A DNA stretch of 42,997 nucleotides from an uncultured Rhodothermales bacterium (GCA_964527795.1 CAZGOS010000003.1:1-42997); one strand, 5' to 3'; numbered from the stretch's first letter, positions 1 through 29,884 are shown. Translations and numbers: made by a program. The notes: generated by a model not told the origin, from the sequence alone.

Positions 1-20
1 ATCCGTACCTGCACTATGCC

Positions 21-1280
21 ATGTTCAACAGCCTGGCGAACGTACTCACGGACGAGGCGGCGAAAGTTTTCAAATTTGAGGAGCAGGAAAAGCTCCACGA
101 AGACATCATCGATACCGGCCTTGCGAAAATCTATCAGTCCCACCTTGAAGTTGCCCGGCACATAGCCTCCGAAGAAGGAGTTGATCTGAAGATTACACTG
201 CTCGACGGCAAGGCGTTTGAGAAGGTGCTGGAATACGTACATCGAGTCGGGCCGTGGCTTCTTGTAATGGGCCGAATCGGTGTTCACAGTGATGCCGGCA
301 TGGATATAGGAAGCAATACCGAAAACCTACTCCGCATGGCGCCCTGCAATGTGTTTCTCTCCAGCCGGAGGTTCTCTCCGGATGTCGATGTGAAGGCGGA
401 CGAGTCCATGATCTGGGCGGAACCGGCCCAGCGCATACTGGACAAGGCCCCCGATTTTGCGAAAGGAATCGCGCGTACGATCGTGCATCGCTGGGCCATG
501 GAACGAGGGCACTCCGTCATCACGACCTCGGTACTGACACAGGCGCTTTCCACCATTCTTCCGGAGTCGTCCATGCGCGCCATGGGTATTATCGCGGAAG
601 ATCTGGCCGCTAAAAAGTTGGGGGAAGAAAACGCCGTTGTTTACGTCTGCCGGAAATGCGGCTGGGTCGCCCGTGGATTTGAGCCGAAGAAATGCACCGT
701 CTGTGAGGCCGGACCGGAAAAGCTTCAGAAGCTCGACCGTGAAATCATTGACGGTCTGGGTCCCCGGGACGGAGCATTTCACGAAGAAAAAGCCTTCGAC
801 AATGTTCGCTTACATTACACGGACGATGCTCGCGACCTGATTCGTTCGCTTCCCGACGGCTATCAGCGACGACGCGCAGAGGCGCAGGTTGAGAAACGAG
901 CCCGGGTACGCAAGATGACCATGATCACGAAAGAAATGGTGGAGGACGTTGTCGGGCAGACAAAGGAAACCGCGAAAAACCTGGAAGAAAAGGGGGAACT
1001 GGGCCAACGAGCGGTTGACACAGCCATGAAAGGCAAAGAATCGGTGGATCGCTATGTGCGCGACGGAGCCTTCGTATGGACGCGGGAAGCCCTTGCGCGT
1101 CTGAACAGAGTTCCGGAAGGATTCATGCGCAACGCCACGAAAAAATGCATCGAGAAGCTCGCCGCTTCCAGCAGGATGGATCTGATCGACCTGAATCTGG
1201 TGGAGGAAGGAATCAATAGCGGGTTGAACGTCATGGAAGAGAAGAGCAAGAAGCAGAACAGGCAGAAGGAGGACCGGTAG
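21..1280 (+). CDS. USP-like / Cys4 knuckle / 3x PCP_red-like repeat protein (5' end probably cut by the window edge)
   Basis: The frame is open back to nt 3 with no upstream stop, so the N-terminus is likely missing. aa ~60-115 resemble the C-terminal half of a universal stress protein fold (LLVMGRIGVHSDAGMDIGSNTENLLRMAPCNVFLSS). A rubredoxin-like CRKC-x14-CTVC knuckle lies at nt 639-707. Three ~46-aa repeats (nt 411-548, 810-953, 1074-1211) follow the pattern [WY]-x2-[ED]-A-x3-[LIM]-x2-[AVLI]-P-x-[FG]-...-I-[TD]. By eye this is the C-terminal domain of protochlorophyllide reductase subunit B (Pfam PCP_red). Confidence 0.6.
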   Translation: MFNSLANVLTDEAAKVFKFEEQEKLHEDIIDTGLAKIYQSHLEVARHIASEEGVDLKITLLDGKAFEKVLEYVHRVGPWLLVMGRIGVHSDAGMDIGSNTENLLRMAPCNVFLSSRRFSPDVDVKADESMIWAEPAQRILDKAPDFAKGIARTIVHRWAMERGHSVITTSVLTQALSTILPESSMRAMGIIAEDLAAKKLGEENAVVYVCRKCGWVARGFEPKKCTVCEAGPEKLQKLDREIIDGLGPRDGAFHEEKAFDNVRLHYTDDARDLIRSLPDGYQRRRAEAQVEKRARVRKMTMITKEMVEDVVGQTKETAKNLEEKGELGQRAVDTAMKGKESVDRYVRDGAFVWTREALARLNRVPEGFMRNATKKCIEKLAASSRMDLIDLNLVEEGINSGLNVMEEKSKKQNRQKEDR

Positions 1281-1392: not shown

Positions 1393-1866
1393 ATGAAATT
1401 TCTTTGTGTGAATTGCAACGTACAGATGACTCTCGAAAAATCCCGGGGGCCGGATGACGGGTCTCTCTCGGTCGTATTTGGCTGCTCATCGTGTGGTCGA
1501 AAAATTGCCATGTTGACCAACTCCGAGGAAACCCAGGTGCTGCACTCACTCGGCATCAAGATTGCCGCGAGCGAGAAAGAGGCCGCTCCGATGGAAACGA
1601 ATCGCTCGTCTCCTATGGATAATCCAGGAGCAGCCGAGTCGCTGGAATCCGCCAAAGCAGATCCGACGGATAAAACCAGCGGCGGCGCTATCGACGCTCA
1701 ATCCGAACTGCAGTGGACACCGGAAGCCCTGGAACGGATGGACCGCATACCGGCGTTCGTCCGGGGAATGGTACAGAAAGGGATCGAGGATTATGCAAGG
1801 GCAAATGACATAACACGGGTTGACGAAGCCGTTCTCAAAGATGTGCGCGACGGATTCGGATTCTAA
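1393..1866 (+). CDS. Small Cys4 zinc-ribbon + PCP_red-like domain protein
   Basis: N-terminal CVNC-x22-CSSC ribbon, a low-complexity linker, then WTPEALERMDRIPAFVRGMVQKGIEDYARANDITRVDEAVL. This is the same module repeated three times in the upstream ORF. Confidence 0.6.
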   Translation: MKFLCVNCNVQMTLEKSRGPDDGSLSVVFGCSSCGRKIAMLTNSEETQVLHSLGIKIAASEKEAAPMETNRSSPMDNPGAAESLESAKADPTDKTSGGAIDAQSELQWTPEALERMDRIPAFVRGMVQKGIEDYARANDITRVDEAVLKDVRDGFGF

Positions 1867-1896: not shown

Positions 1897-2604
1897 CTAA
1901 TCATCAGGTTTGAGATCGAATGTAGCGGTCTCCGTCTCACCGGGGCCGACCGTGATCGGCTTCGATTCTCCTTCTAAAGACTCATGCCATACGACCAGTT
2001 CATACGTTCCAGGAGGCACATCCTTTAGCGTGAATTCTCCACTCTCGTCCGTCACCGCATAATACGGGTGCGCAGCCACCACGATAACAGCACTCATCCA
2101 GTTATGGATATCGCACGATACGCGGGTGAAATCCGGAAATCGGAATCTGCGCCCGGCAACTTCCATCTCATTCATGGTCTTGGGCATCGCCAGGTTGACG
2201 GGACGATTGTTCTCAGGCGCTGTATGAAAATTATGGAGAATACCGTCGGAATTGCGCACCTTCAACGCCTGACCAACGGGCAGTATCACAACATGCGGGT
2301 CGAAAACACACCCTTTCTGGTCCAGTACAACGACATCTTCCGTCCGCCATGTCTGCGTCACATCGATTCCTTCCAGGTAGACGATTGCATTTTTCAGGCC
2401 GGACGACTCGCCGTCAACGATGAGTGTCTCATCTGGAATTTCGCTGTCACATGATGAAAACTCGTCGCTGACGGAATGGAAAACCGGTTCAACATCGGGG
2501 CCGTCATAACGGATCGCACCTCTGATCACCGACGTTGTCTGGGCCGTTGAGATCGTCGGAATCACCGCCGAAAGGAATAGGAAAATCAGAATTCGATTCT
2601 TCAT
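1897..2604 (-). CDS. Secreted cupredoxin (amicyanin-spaced type-1 Cu ligands) fused to a CarboxypepD_reg-like beta-sandwich
   Basis: Signal peptide MKNRILIFLFLSAVIPTISTAQ. Candidate Cu ligands are LHNFH upstream and C-D-I-H-N-W-M (C-x2-H-x2-M, the spacing found in amicyanin). The C-terminus YAVTDESGEFTLKDVPPGTYELVVWHE is typical of carboxypeptidase-regulatory-like domains. It is the last gene of a 4-gene minus-strand operon, 14 nt after the porin gene. Confidence 0.65.
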   Translation of the reverse strand: MKNRILIFLFLSAVIPTISTAQTTSVIRGAIRYDGPDVEPVFHSVSDEFSSCDSEIPDETLIVDGESSGLKNAIVYLEGIDVTQTWRTEDVVVLDQKGCVFDPHVVILPVGQALKVRNSDGILHNFHTAPENNRPVNLAMPKTMNEMEVAGRRFRFPDFTRVSCDIHNWMSAVIVVAAHPYYAVTDESGEFTLKDVPPGTYELVVWHESLEGESKPITVGPGETETATFDLKPDD

Positions 2605-2618
2605 TTTCAGCTCGGTTC

Positions 2619-3698
2619 TTAAAAGAAAATATGGAATTGAAACATCAGTTGATCCTGGTTCAGGGGCACATTTTGCGGAATGAATCGGTTGATCCGATAG
2701 AATACTCCGATCTGTAGAAACTGTGTGATAAACGGTTCGATGCCAAAGGTTAAACGATCCTGGCCGTCCAGCGTATTCTTTACGTCCCGACGACGATCAA
2801 AAAATTCGTAGGTCGTCCTGACATTGAAACCGCGCATCGGAAGGAAGTAAAGTTCGACGAAGCCGGCGAACTGTTCCCTCTTGCCAAACCGCATGAAATC
2901 GCCTTCGGCGGCTAAGGTAAATCGTCCAACATTCAGACCGGCGAACATCCCCATTTTGTAATCGATGCTCCCTCGAATATTCTGACTGAACGATCCGCCG
3001 ATTCGAAAGCGTCGAAACAGAATCTGGCCTATGACCGACACCTGATTACGTGTCAGATTGGCCATGACTGAAGTTCTCCCGGGCTCGAAACCGACCTCGA
3101 TTCCCAGATCGTGCTTGCTGTAGGTGAATCCCGTCCTTGCGCGAATAAATGCATCATCGTCGCGCAGTCTGAGCCCGAACGGCAACAGCATACGGCCAAC
3201 TTTCAAATACGAATTGAAGCGCCTGAACTGAATCAGACCGAAGAATTCGCGGTTTTCCGTGCCCGGAGCCAGTGTCTGGTCGACATAGGCCGTAAGCAGA
3301 TCCGGTACCAGGCGGACTGAGAGATACAGATTCGCTTCGGGAATCCGGGAATTCGTTGTCGCCTCGCCTTCTTCACCCTCCGGTGTCGTGTATCGAAGCA
3401 GAGAAATGTTGTCTATGCGCAGGTTGGATCCCACGGAGATCGATCTGCTAAGCCTTCCGTCAAAAAAACTCGCCGACCGGATGGGCTTCATCGCCAGATT
3501 GGTCTGCGAATAGATCACTCCAAAACTGGTCCGTTTGCCTCCTCCCGTCCGATTCACATGGCATTGAGAACACTTTAATCCTGTTCGAAGCGCCATGTAG
3601 GGCTCCGCCTGTGCCGGTTTCGTAATGGGAGCGATCATTCCAATGCAGAAAACCAGGGCAACCGGAATTCGAGTGAATGTTATGTGTGAAACGCGCAT
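2619..3698 (-). CDS. Fused monohaem cytochrome c / outer-membrane beta-barrel (Cyc2-like porin-cytochrome candidate)
   Basis: Signal peptide ending AQA. A single CSQCH motif (nt 3558-3572) lies ~12 aa into the mature protein. The remaining ~300 aa show alternating-hydrophobic amphipathic beta-strand patterns (for example NLYLSVRLVPDLLTAYV, FTLAAEGDFMRF, FNVRTTYEFFD). The terminus is the OMP-type FQFHIFF with a terminal Phe. Confidence 0.6.
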   Translation of the reverse strand: MRVSHITFTRIPVALVFCIGMIAPITKPAQAEPYMALRTGLKCSQCHVNRTGGGKRTSFGVIYSQTNLAMKPIRSASFFDGRLSRSISVGSNLRIDNISLLRYTTPEGEEGEATTNSRIPEANLYLSVRLVPDLLTAYVDQTLAPGTENREFFGLIQFRRFNSYLKVGRMLLPFGLRLRDDDAFIRARTGFTYSKHDLGIEVGFEPGRTSVMANLTRNQVSVIGQILFRRFRIGGSFSQNIRGSIDYKMGMFAGLNVGRFTLAAEGDFMRFGKREQFAGFVELYFLPMRGFNVRTTYEFFDRRRDVKNTLDGQDRLTFGIEPFITQFLQIGVFYRINRFIPQNVPLNQDQLMFQFHIFF

Positions 3699-3707
3699 TG
3701 TTCGGGT

Positions 3708-4214
3708 TCAGTCGTCTAGTGCTCCGGCTTTTATCCACGCAACCAGCCATTCAACCTCTGTTTTGGACACGAACGGCGGTCCATTCGATGGCATGCGGAA
3801 TCCTTTTTTGGGAGCAACGGCTGTGATTTTCTGGACGAGATAACTCTTCACCGGGTCACCGGGAAGAATCCGCAGTCTCGGATCTCGGTCTGGAAGCTGG
3901 AACGACGGCTGCAGGACGAGTGATTTATAGGAGTTGCCCACGGTCAAATCCAGACCGTTCTCCTCGTCCCCGCCTGTATTATTGTATCCGGATCCTCCCG
4001 GCGAATGACAGCTCGCACAGTAGGTATCGAAAATAGGCTGAATCTGGGACGAGAAACCCAACTCATCCAACGGCATTCCGCTTTGGGTCAAACCGAGACC
4101 GTCCCCCTTACACGAGAGCAAGACAGATGCGAGAAGAAATCCGATACCGACCTGGAAACCACGTCCCGAGCCCACCGCTCTCCTCAATATTTTTCCTCTA
4201 ATGAGTAAGCTCAT
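3708..4214 (-). CDS. Lipoprotein monohaem cytochrome c (PSCyt1-like domain)
   Basis: Lipobox VLLSC. IQPIFDTYCASCHSPGG plus the C-terminal EVEWLVAWIKAGA resemble the Planctomycete-type cytochrome c domain. The start overlaps the upstream gene's stop by 17 nt, and there is a 9-nt gap to the porin gene. Confidence 0.7.
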   Translation of the reverse strand: MSLLIRGKILRRAVGSGRGFQVGIGFLLASVLLSCKGDGLGLTQSGMPLDELGFSSQIQPIFDTYCASCHSPGGSGYNNTGGDEENGLDLTVGNSYKSLVLQPSFQLPDRDPRLRILPGDPVKSYLVQKITAVAPKKGFRMPSNGPPFVSKTEVEWLVAWIKAGALDD

Positions 4215-5157
4215 CGTCGTGCATGAAGAGTCGATAGAATAGATTCGGTCTTCTTGCCAGACTTTTTACAAAATACACCAACGACCATTTTCGGCGACTG
4301 TCCAGCTTCTGTGTCTCTGTATTATCTAATAGCTCTATCTCGCGCTCCGTCGGCTGCTTGAGGAAATACGCTTTCAGAGCCTGAATCTCGGCGTCGGAAT
4401 AGGCTTTCCGATAGTCGTCAAGCGTTGAAAGACTATCGCTGCCAAAGAGGAATGCGTCCGCGTAGGATGGCATCGGTGTGCCATCCATACCGGTACTAAA
4501 AGTTCTGAAGATGCTTTCATTGTCGTCTCCGCCCTTATACCCGCCACGCGTGAAGTCGAACGCATCAATTTTTCTCCCCGTGGCGTCCTTCAACGTGCCT
4601 TCCAGATGACCGGACCCGGTTCCGCGTACGCCGTGACACGTCCAGCAGTCCATGAGCATGTACAGATACTTCCCCTCCGCGAAAACGATTTCCGTCACAG
4701 TAGGCTCGGCCGGGATGTGCAACGTTGGTGCAAACTCATCTTCGTCGAAATATGGCGCAAACGCCCTGACGTACGTCGCGACATCGCGCAACTCTCGCTC
4801 ACTCAACAGGTCTCGCCAGGACGGCATCATCGTGCGCGGAACTCCATTGCGGATCGTGCGCATCAGATCATCGACGGTAGGCAGATCGCCTGTAGGCGTT
4901 GACCTGAATTTGAAAACACCGGTCGAAAAATCGCTCGGTCGTGGATCCAGGGCGGCATAGCCGGGACCTTTTCCGTCCCCCTCGTCGCCATGACAGGCTG
5001 CGCACGCGCGTACGTATATATGCTCGCCTCGGCTTCGGGCCAGAGCAGCTTCTATCAAATCAGAAGCGGTGCGTTCAGACGTCCCGGCCGAAGACTGTGC
5101 GATTGCCGGACCGGCAGAGAAAAAGAGCAGGGTCAGACTGGTCAGTATGCTTCGCAT
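4198..5157 (-). CDS. Periplasmic dihaem cytochrome c
   Basis: Two CxxCH motifs (CAACH, CWTCH), each followed by a conserved F-[KR]-x-[FT]-x-x-G-x-x-G-T-P/M-MP-[SA]-[WY] type Met-ligand segment. MRSILTSLTLLFFSAGPAIAQ reads as a clean signal peptide, so I prefer the start at 5157; the longest ORF starts at 5205. It is a paralogue of the N-terminal half of the 11462-13420 protein. Confidence 0.8.
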   Translation of the reverse strand: MRSILTSLTLLFFSAGPAIAQSSAGTSERTASDLIEAALARSRGEHIYVRACAACHGDEGDGKGPGYAALDPRPSDFSTGVFKFRSTPTGDLPTVDDLMRTIRNGVPRTMMPSWRDLLSERELRDVATYVRAFAPYFDEDEFAPTLHIPAEPTVTEIVFAEGKYLYMLMDCWTCHGVRGTGSGHLEGTLKDATGRKIDAFDFTRGGYKGGDDNESIFRTFSTGMDGTPMPSYADAFLFGSDSLSTLDDYRKAYSDAEIQALKAYFLKQPTEREIELLDNTETQKLDSRRKWSLVYFVKSLARRPNLFYRLFMHDDELTH

Positions 5158-5321
5158 CAAGTCGGCTGCCCGTTCGGTGACTCTTGAGCCGGACCTTTGT
5201 CCCATATTGTGCTCACGCTATAGAATTGGTCGAGACGACTACTTTGATAATTGTGCACGATAGAACTCTGGGTAAATCCTTCGCGGGCTTGCCGCGATGT
5301 ACTTGTCGGATGATGCGCGCG

Positions 5322-6520: not shown

Positions 6521-7861
6521 ATGAAATCATTTCATACAGAAAGAATCCTCTTTGGCGGATTGATATTCGGAATCAGTTTGGCCGGATGCACACTTTCACA
6601 GTCAGAAGTGGACGATACCATTCTGGACGAGCAGTTAATCCAGGTCCTCACAAAGAACGGTGAGCGTACCCTTGCCAATTTCATATTACCGGACAGCGAC
6701 GATTTTTCCTCCATCCCCCAGGATCCGGCAAATCTTCTTACTCTGGACAAAGTAGAGCTGGGTAAGCTACTGTTTCATGAAACCGCACTTGCCACAAATC
6801 CGCGGCACGAGAGCGGAAGGGGAACGTACGCATGCGCGACATGCCATCATGCAGCGGCCGGTTTCCAGGCAGGACGGAAGCAGGCCATAGCCGATGGTGG
6901 TTCCGGCTGGGGTGAGAGAGGTGAAGGACGTACACGGAATGTTGCCTACGAAGTAGAAGATCTGGATATTCAGCCTATCCGGTCTCCTACCATTCTGAAC
7001 ACTGCCTATCAACGAATCACGAAGTGGGACGGCGGTTTCGGCGCACACGGACTGAATGAAGGTACGGAGTCAAGTTGGATTCCCGGCACCGATGCCGCCA
7101 TGAATTGGTTGGGATACGACGGTCTCGAAACACAGGCCATCCGGGGATTGGTTGCCCATCGAATGGGCGATATCGAATCGAGTATCGTAGCCACTCATCC
7201 TACGTACACCGAGCTTTGGGACCGTGCATTTCCAGGTGAGCCTGTTTCGGTTGAAAAAGCGGGATTCGCCATAGCCGCGTACGAACGTACGGTTTTTGCC
7301 AATCAAGCCCCGTTCCAGCGCTGGCTAAGGGGTGAAACCAGCGCCATGTCCCCAGACGAAAAGCGAGGAGCTCTCGTCTTTTTTGGGGATACCGGTTGCG
7401 AGCGCATGTGCCACACCGGCGGCCCTCTCAGTTCAGTAAATTATTATGCTTTGGGAGTGGCGGATATGGAGGGTTCGGACGTTTACGGTGATATTCCTGA
7501 AACGCTGGGTAGAGGAGGTTTTCTTCAGGACCCGGACCAATACTTCATGTTCAAGATTCCACAACTCTACAATCTCAAGGACTCCCCCTATTACGGACAC
7601 GGCGGAATGTTCAGATCCCTTCGGGAGATCGTCGAATATTACAACGAAGCTGTTCCTGCCCGAATCCTTCCTGAAGGGCGCATCAAGAGTACGTTCAAAC
7701 CTCTCGAATTAACGGAGACACAGATTGACAATCTCGTGCTCTTTCTGACGGAATCACTCTACGACCCAAACTTAATGCGCTACGTGCCCGACTCGCTGCC
7801 TTCGGGAAACTGCACGCCGGCAAATGATCCGATTTCTAGAGTTGATCTGGGCTGCGACTGA
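6521..7861 (+). CDS. Dihaem cytochrome c peroxidase / MauG-family lipoprotein
   Basis: Lipobox SLAGC. LGKLLFHETAL...YACATCHHAAAGF is the classic first haem site (nt 6833-6847). FKIPQLYNLKDSPYYGHGGMFRSLREIVEYYN matches the CCP/MauG C-terminal signature. The second haem site reads GCERMCHTGG, which is CX3CH rather than CXXCH (nt 7397-7414). Confidence 0.8.
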   Translation: MKSFHTERILFGGLIFGISLAGCTLSQSEVDDTILDEQLIQVLTKNGERTLANFILPDSDDFSSIPQDPANLLTLDKVELGKLLFHETALATNPRHESGRGTYACATCHHAAAGFQAGRKQAIADGGSGWGERGEGRTRNVAYEVEDLDIQPIRSPTILNTAYQRITKWDGGFGAHGLNEGTESSWIPGTDAAMNWLGYDGLETQAIRGLVAHRMGDIESSIVATHPTYTELWDRAFPGEPVSVEKAGFAIAAYERTVFANQAPFQRWLRGETSAMSPDEKRGALVFFGDTGCERMCHTGGPLSSVNYYALGVADMEGSDVYGDIPETLGRGGFLQDPDQYFMFKIPQLYNLKDSPYYGHGGMFRSLREIVEYYNEAVPARILPEGRIKSTFKPLELTETQIDNLVLFLTESLYDPNLMRYVPDSLPSGNCTPANDPISRVDLGCD

Positions 7862-8028: not shown

Positions 8029-9798
8029 ATGGTAGGGCTAAATCACCGTTTCAGGCGATCACGCCTGCTGTGGTTGGCCCTTCTGGCTGCAATCGCCGTC
8101 GTCACACTTCTAGCAGTGCCGACCGAAGCATTTCCGCAGGAAGCCGTACAGGAAATACCCGCCGATCCCGAATACCGCAGGCTTCCCATGATCGGTAGCC
8201 GCGTCGGTATGTGGGTTGTAGGTCAGCTCCATCTGATGTTCGCGGCTTTCGTACTGGCAGTGCCCCTCGTCTCGCTCATCATCGAGATCGTGGGGCATAT
8301 GAAGAAGGAGAAGCGCTATGACGACCTGGCGTACGAATTCATGAAACTGATGTCGGTATCCTTTTCGCTGACGGCATCGCTGGGAGCACTACTGACGATT
8401 ATGCTGGTCGTGCTGTATCCGAGACTAACGACCTACCTCGTCTCGATCTTTAGCTGGACCTTTTTCCCGTATGCCCTTCTCTTTTTCCTCGAAGCTGTTT
8501 TTCTCTACAGTTATTACTACGGCTGGGGAAAGTTTTCGCCTCGGGTACACATCGCACTCGGAATTGGCCTCAACCTCACCGGGTTGTCCATCATGTTCAT
8601 CGCGAACGCCTGGCTGACGTTCATGAATACGCCCGGCGGCATCTCCGAGACAGGGGCGCTCGTGAACCTGTGGGATGCTATTAATAACTATACCTGGATG
8701 CCCATCAACATCCACCGAACAATTGCCAACGTTGCTTTTGGCGGTTCGATTGCGGCTGCGTACGGCGCATACAAGTATCTCGGCGCCAAAACGCCGGAGG
8801 CCCGCGCCCACTACGACTGGATGGCGTACGTAAGTATTCTCATCGCCATCATTGCCCTCATCCCTCTTCCTTTCGCCGGATATTTACTCGGGAAAGAGAT
8901 CTATGCGTTCTCCCAGTCGCTCGGAATAGCCACCATGGGAGGGACTTTCTCCTGGATCTTCATCATCCAGGGCGTCCTTGTGGGCAACCTGTTTCTGGCT
9001 GCCAACTACTACCTCTGGGTCAGCATGGACCGAATCGAAGGCGCAGAGCGGTATCGGAAATTCATCAAATACCTGCTCGCTTCGATCGCGGTCACGTACA
9101 TCGTCTGGGCGACGCCTCACTCGCTCGTTGCGACGGTTGAAGAAGCGAGGCGGATGGGTGGAGCCAACCATCCGATGCTGAACGTGCTGGGCGTGATGTC
9201 GGCTAAGAATACGGCCGTCAATGTGCTCATCCTGACGACGTTCGTGAGCTTTCTCCTTCACCGACGCAGCGACAAGGAGGCCACCGTGTCATGGGCGCGC
9301 ACCGGTAAGCGCGTCCAGCTTTGGATATTCATCGTGACGACGGTCTTCGTTGTTTTTCTGGGAGTGTACGGGTACTTCGTAGAAGCGCGCGTTCGAATCG
9401 CCTTCTCGATTCCACAGGTCCTGTCGGTCCTCCTGGCAATGATATCGGTAACGGTAATCGACATCTATCTGTTCAGAAACGCCAGGAAGCGCGGTTCGAT
9501 TCGATGGGGCGAAATGCCGGCCCGGGCGCATTACGTTCTTTTCTTTCTGGCCGTCACCTATGCCTGGACGATGGGCATCATGGGATACGTGCGCGGGGCG
9601 ATGCGGCAGCACTGGCACGTGTACGGGGTGATGGCGGATACGTCTCCGGACGCATTCACGCCTTCGATCGGATATGCGTCGGTCGTCACGTCGGTGACGG
9701 TTTTCATCTTCTTCGTCTTCATCGTATTCGTATTCTGGTTGGCGGGTCTCACCGGGCGAAAACCCTGGGAGTCTACCGAGGAGGAGTCAACGGCATGA
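8029..9798 (+). CDS. Cytochrome bd-like oxidase subunit (CydA homologue lacking the Q-loop; extended C-terminal TM region)
   Basis: CydA signatures by eye: a TM1 His (VGQLHLMFAAFVLAVPL), LFFLEAVFLYSYYYGWGK (compare E. coli FFLESTF..FGW), ANAWLTFMNTPGG (compare ANGWMQNPVG), and a TM5 His (NIHRTIANVAFGG). The segment where the quinol-binding Q-loop sits in CydA is only a few residues long (YLGAKTPEARAHYDW). Several extra TM helices follow and no cydB-like gene is present. GAGG lies 8 nt before the ATG at 8029; the longest ORF starts at a TTG at 7990. Confidence 0.75.
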   Translation: MVGLNHRFRRSRLLWLALLAAIAVVTLLAVPTEAFPQEAVQEIPADPEYRRLPMIGSRVGMWVVGQLHLMFAAFVLAVPLVSLIIEIVGHMKKEKRYDDLAYEFMKLMSVSFSLTASLGALLTIMLVVLYPRLTTYLVSIFSWTFFPYALLFFLEAVFLYSYYYGWGKFSPRVHIALGIGLNLTGLSIMFIANAWLTFMNTPGGISETGALVNLWDAINNYTWMPINIHRTIANVAFGGSIAAAYGAYKYLGAKTPEARAHYDWMAYVSILIAIIALIPLPFAGYLLGKEIYAFSQSLGIATMGGTFSWIFIIQGVLVGNLFLAANYYLWVSMDRIEGAERYRKFIKYLLASIAVTYIVWATPHSLVATVEEARRMGGANHPMLNVLGVMSAKNTAVNVLILTTFVSFLLHRRSDKEATVSWARTGKRVQLWIFIVTTVFVVFLGVYGYFVEARVRIAFSIPQVLSVLLAMISVTVIDIYLFRNARKRGSIRWGEMPARAHYVLFFLAVTYAWTMGIMGYVRGAMRQHWHVYGVMADTSPDAFTPSIGYASVVTSVTVFIFFVFIVFVFWLAGLTGRKPWESTEEESTA

Positions 9799-10652
9799 AG
9801 CTCAGCGTCAGAATTATCGTCTTCGTGACTCTTTCGATCGGATTTTACATGTATATAGGCCTGATTGTCCCGCAGACAACGATCTACCCTCCAGAGACTG
9901 CCGATCTTCGTAGTGATCTCACACCGGCAGAGCTGGCCGCAGCGGGAGAGGATATCGTCGCCGGAAAAGGCACCTGTCTGGTCTGTCATGCAATCGGAAA
10001 GCTCGAAGCCGCGCTACGCTATCCCGATCTCGGAAACATAGGTTCCGTCGCGGCATCCCGAGTCGACAGCCTCTCGGATGTGGCCTATCTCGCCCAATCG
10101 CTCTACGAGCCGGACTTATTCATCGTCGAGGGTTTCCTGCCCGGAATGCCTCCAGTCGATCGCCCCCCCATAGGTTTAACGGACGGCGAGATTCTGGCGG
10201 TAATCGCCTACATGCAGAATCTCGGCGGAGAGCCTTCGGTAACGCTGCAGACAAGGCTGCATTACCAGTCTGATTCGGTTCAGGTTGTCTTGCCGGAAGC
10301 GTCAACGTCTCAAGAAGAGATCACCAGAAGCCGAACGCCCCAACCGACGGGACCGAGAGGATCTCGCCTGTTCGTAAACTACTTCTGCACCACGTGCCAC
10401 CTGGTTGACGCTCCGAATCCAATCGATCCGGAAACGCCGCCCCTCAGAGGACCAAGCCTGTACGATGTCGGTTCCCGGCTATCCAGAGCGGCACTTTATG
10501 AGGCGATACTGGAACCGAACCTCAATCTCTCGGAGGGATACGAGGCCGATATAATGACTTCCACGCTCATTCCGAGTGGATTCTACGACGAACTGACTCC
10601 GGTTGAACTGCGCGCTCTTGTCGATTATTTGGCAACACTCACGGGTGGCTAA
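9795..10652 (+). CDS. Membrane-anchored dihaem cytochrome c
   Basis: The ATG overlaps the upstream stop (ATGA) and GAGGAGGAG lies 8-9 nt upstream. There is an N-terminal TM helix (IIVFVTLSIGFYMYIGLIV) and two CxxCH motifs (CLVCH, CTTCH). The 443-aa track ORF starting at 9321 is an out-of-frame extension through the upstream gene. Confidence 0.8.
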   Translation: MKLSVRIIVFVTLSIGFYMYIGLIVPQTTIYPPETADLRSDLTPAELAAAGEDIVAGKGTCLVCHAIGKLEAALRYPDLGNIGSVAASRVDSLSDVAYLAQSLYEPDLFIVEGFLPGMPPVDRPPIGLTDGEILAVIAYMQNLGGEPSVTLQTRLHYQSDSVQVVLPEASTSQEEITRSRTPQPTGPRGSRLFVNYFCTTCHLVDAPNPIDPETPPLRGPSLYDVGSRLSRAALYEAILEPNLNLSEGYEADIMTSTLIPSGFYDELTPVELRALVDYLATLTGG

Positions 10653-11465
10653 GTGAATCTTTTCATCATTCTCGGGATCGTTGGCGGCCTGATCGCGCTC
10701 AGATTCTTAAAGCCGAACCCTTTGTTGAGGGCTCTGGTCTGGTTGCTCGCCAGCTATCTGGGCCTTCGTTTCGCACCGGATCCACCGTTGCCGTCGACGA
10801 TCGTTTCGATGTTCATGGCCATCATCGCGCTGTGCCTGCTCGCCTATCTGACAGCAACGAAGGAGCGAATGCAGGATGCTGTGAGTCGGATCTCTGTTTT
10901 TCTTCTCGATCGGCGATTTGTCATTCCTCTGGTACTGCTGCTCATCGGGCTGCCCGTCCTGGTCGCAACACGAGTATATGTTAATGCCACGAGCGATCCT
11001 TCACCGCCGATTTCGGTCAGGACCGTGCATCCGCCTCCTCCAACTTCGATCTCCTTCAGGGATACGGAGATTGACCTCATCGCTGGGGATAATCCGTACC
11101 GTGAACTGGAAACGAGCAATCCCGAGGCATTTCAAGACCACCTCGAAAACGGACTTCGGGTCTATTACGAAAACTGTCTGCTTTGTCACGGATCCGAACT
11201 CAATGGGGACGGCCTCTTCGCCCACGGGCTGGATCCTATCCCGACAAATTTCAGAGATGCAACAACGATAGCCATACTGCAGGAGTCCTACCTTTTTTGG
11301 CGTATTGCCAAAGGCGCGCCGGGTCTTCCCGACGAGTCAACACCCTGGTCTTCGTCCATGCCGGCATGGGAGCCGTTCCTGTCCGCGGAAGAAATCTGGG
11401 ACGTCATACTCTTCCTCTACGATTACACCGGCCAGAGGCCGCGAGCCGTGGTGATCCCAAAATGA
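10653..11465 (+). CDS. Polytopic (~3-4 TM) monohaem cytochrome c
   Basis: The GTG start directly abuts the upstream TAA. Hydrophobic helices sit in the N-terminal 110 aa. The C-terminal class-I cytochrome c domain reads YYENCLLCHGSELNGDG...SSMPAWEPFLSAEEIWDVILFLYDY (CcoP/ActE-like flavour). Confidence 0.75.
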   Translation: MNLFIILGIVGGLIALRFLKPNPLLRALVWLLASYLGLRFAPDPPLPSTIVSMFMAIIALCLLAYLTATKERMQDAVSRISVFLLDRRFVIPLVLLLIGLPVLVATRVYVNATSDPSPPISVRTVHPPPPTSISFRDTEIDLIAGDNPYRELETSNPEAFQDHLENGLRVYYENCLLCHGSELNGDGLFAHGLDPIPTNFRDATTIAILQESYLFWRIAKGAPGLPDESTPWSSSMPAWEPFLSAEEIWDVILFLYDYTGQRPRAVVIPK

Positions 11466-13420
11466 GAGCGCTACTCCTGTCGATCGGTCTGGCCGCGCAC
11501 GTCTTCTCAGCAGACGCGCAGGATATCGATCTGGGTACGGACACCCAGCGCGGATCCGGCCGGCTGCTCTACGAGATAAAATGTGCGCAGTGCCACGGTG
11601 TCAAGGGAGACGGGGTGTCTCCGGGAAGTCCGTATCTCAGGCCCGGGCCCCGGGATTTCACGTCCGGGATCTACAAATTCAGGACGACGGAAAATGGAGA
11701 GATCCCTTCGGATGAGGATATCAAGCGCAGTATCCGAAACGGAATGCCGTATACGAGCATGCCGGCGTGGCCGTCGCTCAGCGACGATGACGTCACGAAC
11801 CTGATGTACTACCTGAAGACGTTCTCAGAGGACTTTATCTACTTCGGAGACGCGGTTTCCTTCGAAATTCCAGATCCCCCTGAAATCACTGCAGAGTCCC
11901 TCGCACGCGGCCGGGACGTTTACGTAGAGAATCAGTGTACCGACTGCCACGGAAACCACGGCCGAAGCAACGGAATATCGTCCCCAACGCTAAAGGACAT
12001 GTGGAATTCGCCCATCAGGGCGACAGATATGACCATGCGATGGACGTATCGAGGCGGTACGTCGCGGAAGGACATCTACAGGACGTTCACAGCCGGGATA
12101 GACGGAACTCCCATGCCTGCCTACAAGATCGAACCGCTGGAAGATCGATGGCACCTCGTGAACTACGTGGCATCACTTTCCGAGGTTGAGTCCGACTATG
12201 GCACGGTGGTCAGGGCGGTTCGGGTCCCCGACACGCCCGGCGATGCACTCTCTCCGGCGATGTTCAGGAGCGCTCCTCCCACGATGTTTCCTGTGGTGGC
12301 GCAACTCATCGAGCCCGGGCGTTCCTTTTTTCCAGCTGCTACAGCCATCGAAGTCCGGGCCGTCGTAACGGGTGAACACGTCGCCGTGATGCTCCAGTGG
12401 AATGACATGAGCGCTCAGGTTACCGGTTGGAACGATCCGAAGATCGACGTACCGCTGTGGCTGGAAGATTCGGACACAACTGAGGTCTTTTCAGATGCAG
12501 TCGCCGTGCAGTTTCCGTCGAGTACCGAATCGGGCCTGCAGAAGCCCTATTTCCTGTTCGGGGATATCAAACGGCCCACGGACATCTGGTTCGCGGATCT
12601 CTCGGAAACGGAGCCGTGGCACTACATAGGACGAGGAACCGGGTTGTTGCAGATCGGAAGCACGCCCCTTGACATGTGGTCCAGGTGGGACGACGGACAG
12701 TGGACGGTCATATTCCGCCGGGCGCGCATCGAGATGGACCACGCCGCTTTTGAAGAAGGTCGATTCGTCCCCATAGCCTTCTCCGTATGGGATGGATTCA
12801 GTCGGGAGAGAGGCAACCGGAGGGGCGTCACGTCGTGGTATAATCTGTACGTGCAGCGGGCAGACGACGGATCTCCAATTCCGAGCATGCTCATCCTGGG
12901 TCTACTGACGCTGATGGCCGGTGTCGTCGCTGCGATCCGTCTTCAGTGGAAATTTCTGGGTGACGATTCACGCGGCAACGTATTGAGAGAGAACGAATAC
13001 CTGTTGCGCAAATGTCCAATTAGCCGGCCTCTGAAAAGAATAATCCGTCGCGAGGGCCTGACTATCGGTATCAAGGACTATCGAAAGCTGAGAGAAACGC
13101 AGCCCGACACATATAATTTCTCACCTGATGAGCTGATCAAAATCAGCGACTCATACCTCCGCGCGGGCAACGTCGATGCAGCCCTCGCTTTTCTGCACCT
13201 TAACCTCGAAACACACCCACACGATGTCCCGGCGCTGGATCACGTCGGACATGCCTACATGCAGGCCGGGAAACCGGACCAGGCCACCGCTTTTTATGAG
13301 AAATCAGCCGCGCTGAACCCGGAAAGATCGATGGGTAGGCTTATTCTGGAAGCGCGCAGACGTGGAGATCGGAACAGCAAACGTATAGTGATTTCCCCTA
13401 TACATTACCGGGCAGTATAG
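11462..13420 (+). CDS. Dihaem cytochrome c + EB_dh/DOMON-type (ethylbenzene dehydrogenase gamma-like) domain + TM helix + TPR tail
   Basis: The ATG overlaps the upstream stop (ATGA) and is followed by the signal peptide MRALLLSIGLAAHVFSADAQ. Haem motifs are CAQCH and CTDCH. The middle region (EVRAVVTGEHVAVMLQWND..., AVAVQFPS..., KPYFLFGD..., DIWFADLS, GQWTVIFRRA, FSVWDGFSRERGNRRGVTSWYNLYV) reads as an EB_dh-type domain. A single TM follows (MLILGLLTLMAGVVAAI), then a TPR-like tail (YLRAGNVDAALAFLHLNLETHPHD...YMQAGKPDQATAFYEKSAALNP). The track ORF start at 11183 is an artefactual extension. Confidence 0.7.
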   Translation: MRALLLSIGLAAHVFSADAQDIDLGTDTQRGSGRLLYEIKCAQCHGVKGDGVSPGSPYLRPGPRDFTSGIYKFRTTENGEIPSDEDIKRSIRNGMPYTSMPAWPSLSDDDVTNLMYYLKTFSEDFIYFGDAVSFEIPDPPEITAESLARGRDVYVENQCTDCHGNHGRSNGISSPTLKDMWNSPIRATDMTMRWTYRGGTSRKDIYRTFTAGIDGTPMPAYKIEPLEDRWHLVNYVASLSEVESDYGTVVRAVRVPDTPGDALSPAMFRSAPPTMFPVVAQLIEPGRSFFPAATAIEVRAVVTGEHVAVMLQWNDMSAQVTGWNDPKIDVPLWLEDSDTTEVFSDAVAVQFPSSTESGLQKPYFLFGDIKRPTDIWFADLSETEPWHYIGRGTGLLQIGSTPLDMWSRWDDGQWTVIFRRARIEMDHAAFEEGRFVPIAFSVWDGFSRERGNRRGVTSWYNLYVQRADDGSPIPSMLILGLLTLMAGVVAAIRLQWKFLGDDSRGNVLRENEYLLRKCPISRPLKRIIRREGLTIGIKDYRKLRETQPDTYNFSPDELIKISDSYLRAGNVDAALAFLHLNLETHPHDVPALDHVGHAYMQAGKPDQATAFYEKSAALNPERSMGRLILEARRRGDRNSKRIVISPIHYRAV

Positions 13421-13474: not shown

Positions 13475-13873
13475 ATGGCTTTAGAATGGAAGGATGAATT
13501 CGACTGTGGTGTGGCAGAGGTAAACGAACAACACCAACAGCTGGTTGGGCTACTCAATTCTTTGGAGCAAATGATTGCTGATGGGATTGAGAGTGGTCCT
13601 AAGGTGGACAGTCTGCTCAGCTCGCTGGCGTCTGATGCAGTGGCGCATTTCTCGTTTGAGGAAGGGTGCATGGCGCGCTACAATTGTCCGGCAGCCCGGT
13701 TAAACAAGGAAGCACACGCCCAATTTTTGGAGATCTTCGGGGATTTCCAGCGCGAAATTGAGGAAAACGGATCGAATGCACCGCTGCTCAAGAGACTACA
13801 CGAGACGGCTGAGGGTTGGATTGTTACACATATACTCAATGTGGATGTCCAGTTGAAACCGTGTGTTCACTGA
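13475..13873 (+). CDS. Bacteriohemerythrin-like protein
   Basis: WKDEFDCGVAEVNEQHQQLVGLLNSL is the hallmark N-terminus. HF..EE, H..F and H....D ligand segments are present. AAGGGAG lies ~9 nt upstream of the ATG, 54 nt after the oxidase operon. Confidence 0.8.
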   Translation: MALEWKDEFDCGVAEVNEQHQQLVGLLNSLEQMIADGIESGPKVDSLLSSLASDAVAHFSFEEGCMARYNCPAARLNKEAHAQFLEIFGDFQREIEENGSNAPLLKRLHETAEGWIVTHILNVDVQLKPCVH

Positions 13874-29817: not shown

Positions 29818-29870
29818 TTGTGTGTTTGCATTGTAGAAATAAAATCGGTCGTTTTTCAGCCCACGGGGCA

Positions 29871-29884
29871 TATTGTTAACAATA
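29871..29884. promoter_or_regulatory. Perfect 14-bp palindrome TATTGTTAACAATA upstream of ric
   Basis: Centred ~60 nt upstream of the preferred ric start. A TACAAT -10-like hexamer lies between it and the ATG on the coding strand. Candidate operator for an NO/nitrosative-stress regulator; the regulator is not in the window. Confidence 0.35.

What the first reader, a model, noticed from the sequence alone, without database searches (positions are those of the whole stretch)
8029..11465. CydA homologue without a Q-loop or CydB, hard-wired to c-type cytochromes by overlapping start/stop codons
Seen in sequence:
- The CydA hallmarks are retained: a TM1 His, an FFLEA..GW glutamate segment, ANAW..NTPGG and a TM5 His.
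- The periplasmic quinol-binding loop between helices 6 and 7 is reduced to a few residues.
- The protein is extended by additional C-terminal helices, and no CydB- or CydX-like ORF follows.
- Three haem-c proteins follow instead, with ATGA / TAAGTG / ATGA junctions that imply stoichiometric co-translation.

Established knowledge: canonical bd oxidases are quinol oxidases made of CydAB. Q-loop-less bd-like proteins have been noted bioinformatically, for example in Nitrospira and in catalogued bd-superfamily subgroups. They lack biochemical characterisation.

Inference: this is a cytochrome c-dependent reductase of the bd fold. Whether the substrate is O2, NO or something else is open.
Basis: partly seen in the sequence, partly recalled or inferred. 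Interest (0 to 1): 0.75.

Follow-up and report, generated by a model that had tools for sequence, protein, structure and literature searches.

The report
Catalogued bd-like oxidase with cytochromes c
This is a real four-gene respiratory module: a relative of cytochrome bd subunit I that lacks the quinol site, followed by three membrane-anchored haem-c proteins; it belongs to a family (the 'OR-N2' bd-like oxidase cluster) that was described years ago in nitrite oxidisers and other bacteria and whose chemistry is still untested.

Summary
The sequence observation holds. Gene 8029..9798 encodes a 589-aa, 14-helix CydA homologue (Pfam 1.5e-24; all ten best Foldseek matches are CydA chains). It has no Q-loop. 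No CydB was found in the window or in 80 related genomes. Three haem-c genes follow, with ATGA / TAAGTG / ATGA junctions; the third runs to 13420, beyond the stated end.

It is not new. The residue signature, the 14 helices and the operon (dihaem c, monohaem c, EbdC/NxrC-like dihaem c) match the OR-N2 subfamily of Murali et al. 2021. They also match the 'bd-like oxidase / alternative NxrC' cluster of Lücker 2013 and Mundinger 2019.

The order cydA-like, c1, c2, c3 is kept in 65-75 of 66-76 species from about ten phyla. Natural CydA-like::c1 fusions exist.

The equivalents of E. coli H19, E107, H126, H186 and M393 are conserved. E99 is an invariant Tyr. E445 appears to be Ser/Ala/Gly, though that C-terminal alignment is weak.

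A cytochrome c-fed reductase, most likely of O2, is therefore plausible but unproven.

One possibly new point: NirJ2/AhbD-like radical-SAM and PCP_red-domain genes are conserved neighbours.

Verdict: new member of a known, uncharacterised kind. Interest 0.35.

The parts
8029..9798 (+). cydA-like gene (OR-N2-type 'bd-like oxidase'). 589 aa with 14 predicted TM helices, N and C termini cytoplasmic. No Q-loop and no CxxCH.
   Evidence: Pfam PF01654 E 1.5e-24 over residues 57-303. AF2 helices. Foldseek top 10 are all CydA. K+R count 28 inside against 10 outside. OR-N2 residue signature.
8230..8232 (+). H68, the equivalent of E. coli CydA H19 (axial ligand of the active-site haem), near the periplasmic end of TM1.
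   Evidence: hhalign against E. coli CydA. His in 77 of 80 species and Lys in 3.
8470..8493 (+). Y148..E155. Y148 stands where E99 would be. E155 is the equivalent of E107 (proton-channel glutamate) in FFLEA.
   Evidence: Y148 in 79/80 and E155 in 80/80. Same pattern as OR-N2 'Y183/E190'.
8548..8550 (+). H174, the equivalent of E. coli H126 (proton channel, cytoplasmic half of TM4).
   Evidence: Spacing E155+19, as in E. coli E107/H126. Invariant 80/80.
8713..8715 (+). H229, the equivalent of H186 (haem b558 ligand, TM5).
   Evidence: PDB alignments. Invariant 80/80.
9169..9210 (+). H381..M390..N394. M390 is the equivalent of M393 (second b558 ligand). H381, K393 and N394 are invariant.
   Evidence: P-x7-M alignment to E. 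coli P385..M393. Matches OR-N2 'M430/N434'. 80/80 conservation.
9583..9618 (+). GYVRGAMRQHWH, the counterpart of the CydA motif GW..E..GRQPW at the periplasmic end of TM8. The E445 position is Gly/Ala here (Ser in most relatives). R522, R526, W529 and H530 are invariant.
   Evidence: Weak HMMER second domains to 9r2g and 7ose chains. Pairwise motif comparison. Column counts. OR-N2 'S563 (S/A), W569'.
9795..10652 (+). c1: dihaem cytochrome c with one N-terminal TM anchor. Start overlaps the cydA-like stop (ATGA).
   Evidence: Pfam Cytochrom_C. Two CxxCH and one TM. Present in 75/76 loci. The first haem motif with M118 is conserved; the second CxxCH is present in 43 of 76 orthologues. Fused to the CydA-like protein in P0121, 32% identity, E 1e-40.
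10653..11465 (+). c2: monohaem cytochrome c with three N-terminal TM helices. GTG start directly after the c1 TAA.
   Evidence: Pfam Cytochrome_CBB3/Cytochrom_C. TM and CxxCH. Present in 71/71 loci. C175, C178, H179, M236 and H126 conserved.
11462..13420 (+). c3 ('alternative NxrC'-type). Signal peptide, two haem-c domains, an EB_dh (EbdC/NxrC-like) domain, a TM anchor (about residues 470-496) and a cytoplasmic TPR tail. Start overlaps the c2 stop (ATGA).
   Evidence: Pfam Cytochrom_C x2, EB_dh and TPR. NCBIfam DMSO_red_II_gam 8.8e-19. PDB 2ivf_C E 6e-6. Present in 65/66 loci, two CxxCH in 69/69.
3..1280 (+). C-terminal part of a Usp + PCP_red-domain protein, cut by the window edge. It is a conserved neighbour of the module.
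   Evidence: Pfam PCP_red x2 and Usp. 38.7% identity to residues 517-964 of the 1039-aa protein downstream of the module in L002. A homologue lies within 10 kb in 34/39 loci.
1393..1866 (+). Small PCP_red-domain protein (157 aa), a conserved neighbour of the module.
   Evidence: Pfam PCP_red 2.3e-14. A homologue is present in 29/39 fully flanked loci.

Best explanation
Genes 8029..13420 encode a membrane respiratory complex of the OR-N2 'bd-like oxidase' type, probably from a Rhodothermales-like bacterium.

Shown:
- A 14-helix CydA homologue keeps the four-helix haem core. It retains H68, the E155/H174 proton-path residues and the low-spin haem pair H229/M390.
- It lacks the quinol-binding Q-loop and has no CydB partner.
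- It is always co-encoded, and sometimes fused, with membrane-anchored c-type cytochromes. In this window they carry five CxxCH motifs.

Inferred mechanism:
1. Electrons from periplasmic donors (soluble cytochromes c, or a docked periplasmic dehydrogenase) enter through the haems c of c3, c1 and c2.
2. They pass to the b558-like haem (H229/M390) near the periplasmic face.
3. They move on to a high-spin haem at H68.
4. There a small oxidant, most probably O2, is reduced. Protons are drawn from the cytoplasm along E86/D98, H174, E155 and Y148.
5. The enzyme would therefore conserve energy by charge separation, as cytochrome bd does, but it would be fed by cytochrome c instead of quinol.
6. The five extra helices of the CydA-like protein and the five anchor helices of c1-c3 would occupy the place of CydB.

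Identity as an OR-N2 module is about 0.9 certain. The O2-reductase mechanism is about 0.45-0.5; the confidence value given refers to the mechanism.
For: Fold and core residues.

Topology places H68, H229, M390, H381 and H528/H530 on the periplasmic side and E86 and H174 on the cytoplasmic side.

Invariance of buried E155, H174 and Y148 across 80 species at 51-74% identity fits a proton-consuming active site better than a bare electron wire.

Association with the cytochromes:
- Strict synteny with c1-c3.
- Conserved tight junctions.
- Natural CydA-like::c1 fusions.

No CydB and no second CydA-like gene (1/39).

Carriers include groups I recall as largely aerobic (Rhodothermales, Gemmatimonadota, Vicinamibacterales).

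The literature treats OR-N enzymes as the likely cytochrome c-dependent terminal oxidases of Nitrospirales and Nitrospinota, some of which have no other oxidase.
Against: - No member of the family has been purified or assayed.
- The E99 carboxylate is an invariant Tyr. The E445 haem ligand aligns to Ser/Ala/Gly, so the three-haem bd active site is probably not intact.
- The C-terminal half has no significant sequence match to CydA. The ligand mapping there rests on weak motif alignments.
- According to the literature, the same cluster type sits in NXR gene clusters of strictly anaerobic anammox bacteria. That argues against an obligatory O2 function.
- Three Acidobacteriota orthologues have Lys in place of H68.
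- The canonical Met/Lys haem-b ligands of the EB_dh domain are not conserved in c3.
Confidence: 0.47

Rival explanations
1. An electron-transfer or anchor module, not an oxidase. The complex would tether or serve a periplasmic type-II DMSO-reductase-family enzyme (NXR-like) through the EbdC/NxrC-like domain of c3. It would pass electrons between that enzyme, cytochromes c and the quinone pool, acting like an alternative complex III, for example in reverse electron transport.
For: - This role is proposed in the literature for the homologous cluster in Nitrospira, Nitrospina and anammox bacteria.
- In Gemmatimonadaceae and Latescibacteria loci L002, L003 and L005 the module lies directly downstream of a 1183-aa molybdopterin subunit, an Fe-S subunit, a NarJ-like chaperone and an EB_dh gamma subunit.
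- c3 has a DMSO_red_II_gam-type domain.
- Loss of the E445 and E99 equivalents weakens the case for an oxidase site.
Against: - No molybdoenzyme lies within 10 kb in 0 of 80 species loci, nor anywhere in this 43-kb window. The module is therefore mostly independent of NXR-type enzymes.
- All known quinol-binding residues and the Q-loop are missing.
- The H19-equivalent ligand and the intramembrane Glu/His proton path are invariant.
- The EbdC Met108/Lys201 haem-b ligands align to Phe/Arg in c3.
Confidence: 0.25
2. A cytochrome c-dependent reductase of an oxidant other than O2, such as NO or H2O2, serving detoxification or anaerobic respiration. It might use a haem/non-haem-metal site built from the invariant periplasm-side His and carboxylate residues (H381, H528/H530, E372, D537).
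For: - In this window the module is flanked by a CCP/MauG-family dihaem enzyme (6521..7861) and a bacteriohemerythrin (13475..13873). An ScdA/RIC di-iron repair protein lies at 29071..29871.
- According to the literature, the cluster type occurs in anammox bacteria; NC10 loci were retrieved here. I recall both groups as handling NO.
- The altered active-site ligands allow a changed chemistry.
- Copper-binding His residues were once proposed for a Nitrospira bd-like paralogue.
Against: - The flanking genes are not conserved: CCP in 1/39 loci, hemerythrin in none.
- There is no sequence similarity to NOR or haem-copper oxidases.
Confidence: 0.12
3. A degenerate or non-catalytic bd relic that merely scaffolds the cytochromes c or handles haem.
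For: Two canonical ligand positions are lost. The C-terminal half is not recognisable by Pfam.
Against: - Conservation is extreme: 51-92% identity across about ten phyla, with 150 positions at least 97% conserved in 80 species.
- The Nitrospira homologue cluster is among the 40 most transcribed genes.
Confidence: 0.03

Closest known systems
OR-N2 subfamily of the cytochrome bd superfamily (Murali, Gennis & Hemp 2021). Equivalent to the 'bd-like oxidase + dihaem c + monohaem c + alternative NxrC' cluster of Nitrospira (bd-like_3/alt_NxrC_2), Nitrospina gracilis and Kuenenia (Lücker 2013; Mundinger 2019).
   Same: - 14 TM helices and no Q-loop or quinol residues.
- Residue pattern H19=H, E99=Y, E107=E, F114/F116=Y/Y, H126=H, H186=H, M393=M(+N), E445=S/A/G, followed by a conserved W.
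- Operon with one dihaem and one monohaem membrane cytochrome c plus a dihaem, EbdC-like, membrane-anchored protein.
- Usually no second cydA-like gene.
- Nitrospinae MAG orthologues are 51% identical and have the same gene order.
   Different: - This copy is in a Rhodothermales-like genome with no NXR or other molybdoenzyme nearby.
- c3 carries a 156-aa cytoplasmic TPR tail that most orthologues lack.
- Here the module sits between a CCP/MauG-like gene and a hemerythrin gene.
- Formal placement with the authors' HMMs or tree was not possible.
Canonical cytochrome bd quinol oxidase CydAB(X) (qOR1-3; E. coli 6RKO/6RX4, Geobacillus 5DOQ)
   Same: Fold of subunit I (Foldseek E down to 3.5e-9). 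TM1 His, the FFLE glutamate, H126, and the b558 His/Met pair. N-terminus of TM1 on the outer side and haems near the periplasmic face.
   Different: No Q-loop (K252/E257), no CydB or CydX, and E99 and E445 are not conserved. There are five extra helices and dedicated c-type cytochromes. The electron donor is presumably cytochrome c rather than quinol.
OR-C1a/b (bd-family proteins with haem c motifs fused to CydA)
   Same: Quinol site lost. Cytochrome c implied as donor.
   Different: OR-C proteins have 8 TM helices and CxxCH motifs within the CydA polypeptide, and they come as a/b pairs. The window protein has no CxxCH and 14 helices. Only a few relatives are fused to c1.
cbb3-type cytochrome c oxidase (CcoNOP): a functional analogy only
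   Same: A membrane catalytic subunit served by mono- and dihaem membrane-anchored cytochromes c encoded in the same operon. c2 and c3 give weak CcoP-type matches.
   Different: The catalytic subunit is unrelated: haem-copper superfamily with CuB and proton pumping.

Membership tests
OR-N2 subfamily of the cytochrome bd superfamily | CydA-type N-terminal four-helix haem core with the H19-equivalent His | tested here: met
   Pfam E 1.5e-24. hhalign H68 to H19. Foldseek to CydA chains.
OR-N2 subfamily of the cytochrome bd superfamily | Quinol-binding Q-loop and its residues absent | tested here: met
   The Pfam match stops at profile position 248 of 418. The model shows TM helices 307-335 and 340-366 where the Q-loop would be. 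No periplasmic loop exceeds about 30 residues.
OR-N2 subfamily of the cytochrome bd superfamily | 14 transmembrane helices | tested here: met
   14 long helices in the AF2 model. Hydropathy. Positive-inside count 28 against 10.
OR-N2 subfamily of the cytochrome bd superfamily | Published residue signature (Suppl. Table 6): Y at E99, E at E107, Y/Y at F114/F116, H at H126, H at H186, M+N at M393, S/A at E445, and a conserved W after it | tested here: met
   Y148, E155, Y162/Y164, H174, H229, M390/N394, G523 (S 64/80 and A 13/80 in relatives), W529. The last three positions rest on spacing and weak alignments.
OR-N2 subfamily of the cytochrome bd superfamily | Operon with several cytochromes c and an EbdC (type-II DMSO reductase gamma) homologue, usually without a second cydA | tested here: met
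OR-N2 subfamily of the cytochrome bd superfamily | Placement inside the OR-N2 clade by the authors' tree or HMM classifier | not testable with these tools
   The reference sequences (TKS59798.1 and others) and HMMs could not be fetched. The nearest proxy is 51% identity and identical synteny with Nitrospinae MAG loci L080 and L087.
Canonical cytochrome bd quinol oxidase (CydAB) | Q-loop with K252/E257 quinol site | tested here: not met
Canonical cytochrome bd quinol oxidase (CydAB) | CydB subunit encoded with CydA | tested here: not met
   hhalign probability 0.3%. No tblastn hit in the window or in 80 loci.
Canonical cytochrome bd quinol oxidase (CydAB) | Full ligand set H19, H186/M393, E445 plus E99 | tested here: not met
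   H68, H229 and M390 are present. E99 is Y148. E445 is G523/A524. The E445 mapping is weakly supported.
OR-C family | CxxCH haem-c motifs within the CydA polypeptide; about 8 TM helices | tested here: not met
   No CxxCH in the 589-aa protein, and 14 helices.
NXR-associated membrane module (as in Nitrospira, Nitrospina and Kuenenia nxr clusters) | Genomic association with NxrAB-type molybdoenzyme genes | tested here: not met
   None in the window and none in 80 species loci. Present only in L002, L003 and L005.
Type-II DMSO reductase gamma subunit (EbdC/NxrC) for the c3 C-terminal domain | Met/Lys axial ligands of haem b (EbdC Met108/Lys201) | tested here: not met
   These align to F366 and R454. 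In 69 orthologues position 366 is F50/M7/L5 and position 454 is R57. The alignment is local, E 6e-6.

The most novel reading that the evidence does not exclude
The OR-N2 complex could be a third, independent kind of cytochrome c oxidase whose active site differs from cytochrome bd. It would have a single high-spin haem at H68, paired with a site built from the invariant periplasm-side residues H381, H528/H530, E372 and D537 (or H126 of c2). That site would hold either a non-haem metal or a specially modified haem.

The cofactor would be made or inserted by the conserved neighbouring genes: a NirJ2/AhbD-like radical-SAM enzyme with a PCP_red tail, Usp-PCP_red proteins, a ferredoxin and an Mrp-like Fe-S carrier.

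The linkage is specific. 21 of 62 metagenomic radical-SAM homologues with the PCP_red tail sit next to module genes, against 0 of 18 without the tail.
Probability: 0.12. Interest if true: 0.8.

Novelty: new member of a known kind. Interest (0 to 1): 0.35.

Why it matters
The family is very widespread. More than 6,900 database proteins match it, it occurs in at least 591 GTDB species, and it spans about ten phyla at over 50% identity. It is highly expressed in nitrite oxidisers and may be their main terminal oxidase, yet no member has been purified.

This window adds no new principle. It does reinforce three points useful to anyone who takes the family on:
- The module is mostly independent of nitrite oxidoreductase.
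- Its link to the cytochromes c is physical, because natural fusions exist.
- It travels with a tetrapyrrole-type radical-SAM/PCP_red gene set, which hints at a dedicated cofactor.

A cultured carrier (Rhodocaloribacter litoris) makes the question experimentally approachable.

Tried and rejected
- Pfam scans of the C-terminal fragments (residues 295-589, 367-589, 483-589) at E up to 10 gave no bd-related hit. Sequence alone cannot place the C-terminal helices.
- hhalign of the family profile against E. coli CydA aligned only residues 57-221. Against CydB it aligned nothing. The idea that the C-terminal half is a fused CydB was dropped.
- Two alternative counterparts of the E445 motif were considered. 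'GYFVEAR' (448-454; E452 is only 58/80 conserved) fits less well than 'GYVRGAMRQHW'. 'WLAGLTGRKPW' (570-580) is on the cytoplasmic side and is not conserved. Both were rejected.
- Model coordinates are not exposed. No structure-guided residue alignment or His-cluster distances could be computed.
- Extending the window to the left failed. The first ORF is truncated and not on record. The PCP_red gene is found only on contigs of 1.6 kb or less.
- Lücker et al. 2010 could not be read. The ISME J version of Murali et al. is not held.
- The Nitrospirota/Manganitrophaceae homologue P0284 (36% identity) turned out to be an orphan paralogue without cytochrome neighbours. It was not used as the orthologue.
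- Promoter and terminator scans were at or below shuffle expectation and give no operon boundary.
- Literature searches for PCP_red/PF08369, and for AhbD/NirJ linked to bd oxidases, found nothing relevant. A search for a purified bd-like oxidase found none.

Full report
WHAT IS IN THE SEQUENCE

The region holds four tightly packed genes on the + strand.
- A cydA-like gene, 8029..9798, 589 aa.
- c1, 9795..10652, 285 aa, with one N-terminal TM helix and two CxxCH motifs.
- c2, GTG 10653..11465, 270 aa, with three TM helices and one CxxCH.
- c3, 11462..13420, 652 aa. It has a signal peptide, two CxxCH, an EB_dh domain, one TM helix and a TPR tail.

The finding's end coordinate (11465) omits c3.

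The first protein is a true CydA relative.
- Pfam Cyt_bd_oxida_I scores E 1.5e-24, but only over residues 57-303, which is profile 2-248 of 418.
- PDB CydA chains score 1e-15 to 1e-18.
- An AlphaFold2 model built on 42 homologues (pLDDT 72.7, pTM 0.72) has CydA chains as all ten of its best Foldseek matches in the PDB, E 3.5e-9 to 3e-5.
- It contains no CxxCH.
- Nothing in the window or in 80 related loci resembles CydB.

ANATOMY OF THE CYDA-LIKE PROTEIN

The model has 14 long helices. A count of Lys+Arg in the loops gives 28 on one side and 10 on the other. This fits an N-in/C-in topology.

Alignment to E. coli, Geobacillus and mycobacterial CydA gives the following equivalences:
- H68 = H19.
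- E155 = E107.
- H174 = H126.
- H229 = H186.
- The E99 position is Pro147/Tyr148.

The C-terminal half has no significant sequence match to CydA, but two weak and mutually consistent alignments exist.
- P382-x7-M390 matches E. coli P385-x7-M393.
- 'GYVRGAMRQHWH' (519-530) matches the CydA motif 'GW..E.GRQPW' at the end of TM8.

On that mapping the E445 haem ligand is Gly/Ala in the window protein.

My best reading is that the nine CydA helices are all present. One helix is added at the N-terminus. One helical hairpin (307-366) replaces the Q-loop. A second hairpin (423-481) sits between TM7 and TM8.

Across 80 species (51-74% identity) the following are invariant: E86, Y148, E155, H174, H229, R230, D263, E290, R335, E372, H381, M390, K393, N394, R413, R456, D478, R522, R526, W529, H530 and D537. 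H68 is His in 77 and Lys in 3. Position 523 is Ser in 64 and Ala in 13.

IT IS A CATALOGUED FAMILY

Murali, Gennis and Hemp (bioRxiv 10.1101/2021.01.16.426971) divide the bd superfamily into qOR, OR-C and OR-N. Their Supplementary Table 6 describes OR-N2 as having 14 TM helices and these residues: H at H19, Y at E99, E at E107, Y/Y at F114/F116, H at H126, H at H186, M430/N434 at M393, S/A at E445, and a conserved W. The window protein matches position for position, including the spacings.

Lücker et al. 2013 (PMC3578206) describe the same cluster in Nitrospina, Nitrospira and Kuenenia. It consists of a 14-helix bd-like oxidase with the Q-loop replaced by membrane helices and the quinol residues missing, one mono- and one dihaem cytochrome c, and an 'alternative NxrC' with two haem-c sites.

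Mundinger et al. 2019 (PMC6606698) show that the Nitrospira copy is among the 40 most transcribed genes.

Later comparative papers call OR-N enzymes putative cytochrome c-oxidising O2 reductases and stress that experimental confirmation is lacking. OR-N was already recorded in 27 phyla, including Bacteroidota. I found no paper reporting purification or structure.

HOW CONSERVED IS THE MODULE?

The protein search returned more than 6,900 hits. The best 120 are 66-92% identical and come from Rhodothermales, Gemmatimonadota, Latescibacteria, KSB1, Calditrichia and Krumholzibacteria.

A scan of one genome per GTDB species found at least 591 carriers. These also include Acidobacteriota, Fibrobacteria, Myxococcota, NC10/Methylomirabilis, Rokubacteria, Chloroflexi and Nitrospinae.

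In the best 80 loci:
- c1 follows the cydA-like gene in 75/76.
- c2 follows in 71/71.
- c3 follows in 65/66.
- A second cydA-like gene is present in 1/39.
- CydB is present in 0/80.
- A molybdoenzyme is present in 0/80.

Four-base stop/start overlaps occur at about half of all junctions, and about 85% of gaps are 15 nt or less (my start-codon choice favours short gaps). Rhodocaloribacter litoris has gaps of 8-81 nt.

At 50% clustering the family collapses to 312 representatives with E at or below 1e-30.

Three representatives are natural fusions of the CydA-like protein with c1: P0121, P0122 and P0132 (the last from a Nitrospinae vent metagenome). For P0121 the c1 part is 32% identical, E 1e-40. 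This supports direct physical contact between the two proteins.

THE CYTOCHROMES

- c1: the first haem motif and M118 are conserved. The second CxxCH is present in 43 of 76 orthologues.
- c2: C175/C178/H179, M236 and H126 are conserved.
- c3: both haem-c motifs occur in 69/69. The EB_dh domain is recognisable (NCBIfam DMSO_red_II_gam 8.8e-19; PDB 2ivf_C 6e-6). The EbdC haem-b ligands I recall (Met108, Lys201) align to F366 and R454, and to Phe/Arg in most orthologues. A canonical haem b in this domain is therefore doubtful.
- The 156-aa TPR tail of c3 is peculiar to this lineage. Most orthologues end within 25 residues of the anchor helix.

HOW IT PROBABLY WORKS

Shown: a bd-fold membrane protein that keeps one active-site haem ligand, the low-spin haem pair and a buried Glu/His/Tyr path. 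It has lost the quinol site and CydB. It is obligatorily partnered with membrane-anchored cytochromes c that face the periplasm.

Inferred: electrons enter through the haems c, reach the b558-like haem and then a high-spin haem at H68. There O2 is reduced with cytoplasmic protons. This would be a bd-like, non-pumping but electrogenic cytochrome c oxidase. I give this about 0.45-0.5.

The main rival, about 0.25, is the role proposed for nitrite oxidisers and anammox bacteria: a membrane anchor or electron-transfer module for NXR-type enzymes that communicates with quinone. It is supported by loci L002, L003 and L005, where the module follows a molybdopterin/Fe-S/NarJ/gamma set. It is weakened by the absence of any molybdoenzyme in 80 of 80 other loci and in this window.

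A reductase of NO or peroxide, about 0.12, is suggested only by local, non-conserved neighbours (a CCP/MauG-like gene and a hemerythrin gene) and by the altered ligands.

SOMETHING POSSIBLY NEW

The module travels with an unexplained gene set:
- A radical-SAM/SPASM enzyme closest to NirJ2/AhbD (E 1e-105 and 3e-98 for the R. litoris copy, below the equivalog cut-offs). It carries a C-terminal PCP_red (BchB C-terminal) domain.
- Large Usp+PCP_red proteins.
- A small PCP_red protein.
- In R. litoris, a ferredoxin and an MrpORP/ApbC-like Fe-S carrier.

Usp/PCP_red genes lie within 10 kb in 34/39 fully flanked loci and the radical-SAM gene in 23/39. They are usually on the same strand immediately after c3. 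In the window, two of these genes are at 3..1280 (cut by the window edge) and 1393..1866.

A reverse test on metagenome contigs shows specificity. 21 of 62 radical-SAM homologues that carry the PCP_red tail have module genes on the same, often short, contig (14/28 with at least 6 kb on one side). None of 18 without the tail do.

The nearest characterised relatives act on tetrapyrroles, so a dedicated haem-modifying or haem-inserting system is a reasonable guess. Nothing here tests it. I found no literature on it.

VERDICT

The interpretation restates a published, still untested hypothesis, and only part of the proposed ligand set is conserved. This is a new member of a known, uncharacterised kind.

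Noticed in passing
window 3..1280 (+) and 1393..1866 (+); L001:16833-21842; L002:15810-20214: PCP_red-domain proteins (one with Usp) and a NirJ2/AhbD-like radical-SAM/SPASM enzyme with a PCP_red tail are conserved neighbours of the bd-like module. In R. litoris there are also a ferredoxin and an Mrp-like Fe-S carrier. Usp/PCP_red is present in 34/39 loci and the radical-SAM gene in 23/39. In the reverse test, 21/62 tail-bearing radical-SAM homologues sit next to module genes, against 0/18 tail-less ones. The function is unknown and no literature was found.
   Followed up: yes
window 12557..12559 and 12821..12823 (c3 F366, R454): The EB_dh domain of c3 lacks the Met/Lys haem-b ligands of EbdC/NxrC in pairwise alignments. 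The family is mostly Phe and Arg at these positions, so the 'alternative NxrC' may not bind haem b in the canonical way.
   Followed up: partly
window 12950..13417 (c3 residues about 497-652): c3 has a 156-aa cytoplasmic TPR tail after its anchor helix. Most of 55 orthologues with a detectable anchor have tails shorter than 25 residues.
   Followed up: partly
P0121 (889 aa), P0122 (784 aa), P0132 (807 aa): These are natural single-polypeptide fusions of the bd-like protein with the c1 cytochrome. P0132, from a Nitrospinae vent metagenome, also has Ser where E155 would be.
   Followed up: partly
L059, L070, L077 (Acidobacteriota loci): The H19-equivalent His (H68) is replaced by Lys ('AQLKLLF') in three orthologues. 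At least L059 and L077 keep the c1/c2/c3 synteny; no c3 hit was found in L070.
   Followed up: partly
L002/L003:2061-9863, L005:2025-9827: In marine Gemmatimonadaceae and a Latescibacteria MAG the module lies directly downstream of a 1183-aa molybdopterin subunit, a 121-aa ORF, a 428-aa Fe-S subunit, a NarJ-like chaperone and a dihaem EB_dh gamma subunit. This is an NXR/type-II DMSO reductase-like enzyme of unknown substrate.
   Followed up: partly
window 6521..7861 (+): A CCP/MauG/MbnH-family dihaem enzyme lies 167 bp upstream of the cydA-like gene. Its second haem site reads CERMCH (CX3CH) instead of CxxCH. This neighbour is not conserved (1/39 loci).
   Followed up: no
window 13475..13873 (+) and 29071..29871 (-): A bacteriohemerythrin gene lies 54 bp downstream of c3. 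An ScdA/RIC-type di-iron repair protein lies further on. These are O2/NO-related genes specific to this genome's arrangement.
   Followed up: no
window 1897..5205 (-): A divergent operon encodes a dihaem cytochrome c (335 aa, 48% identical to the N-terminal part of the L002 gamma-like protein), a monohaem c (168 aa), a 359-aa monohaem protein with no Pfam or NCBIfam match, and a CarboxypepD_reg-domain protein. The same set sits beside the module in L017 and L088.
   Followed up: partly
L001:15447-16607: In Rhodocaloribacter litoris an IS605-type OrfB/TnpB (Cas12f-like) gene is inserted between c3 and the radical-SAM gene.
   Followed up: no
L089/L090:10001-11914: A Nitrospirota/Manganitrophaceae bd-like paralogue (P0284, 36% identical) stands alone next to a NuoF-like gene, without cytochrome c neighbours. 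It has Asp at the H528 position.
   Followed up: partly
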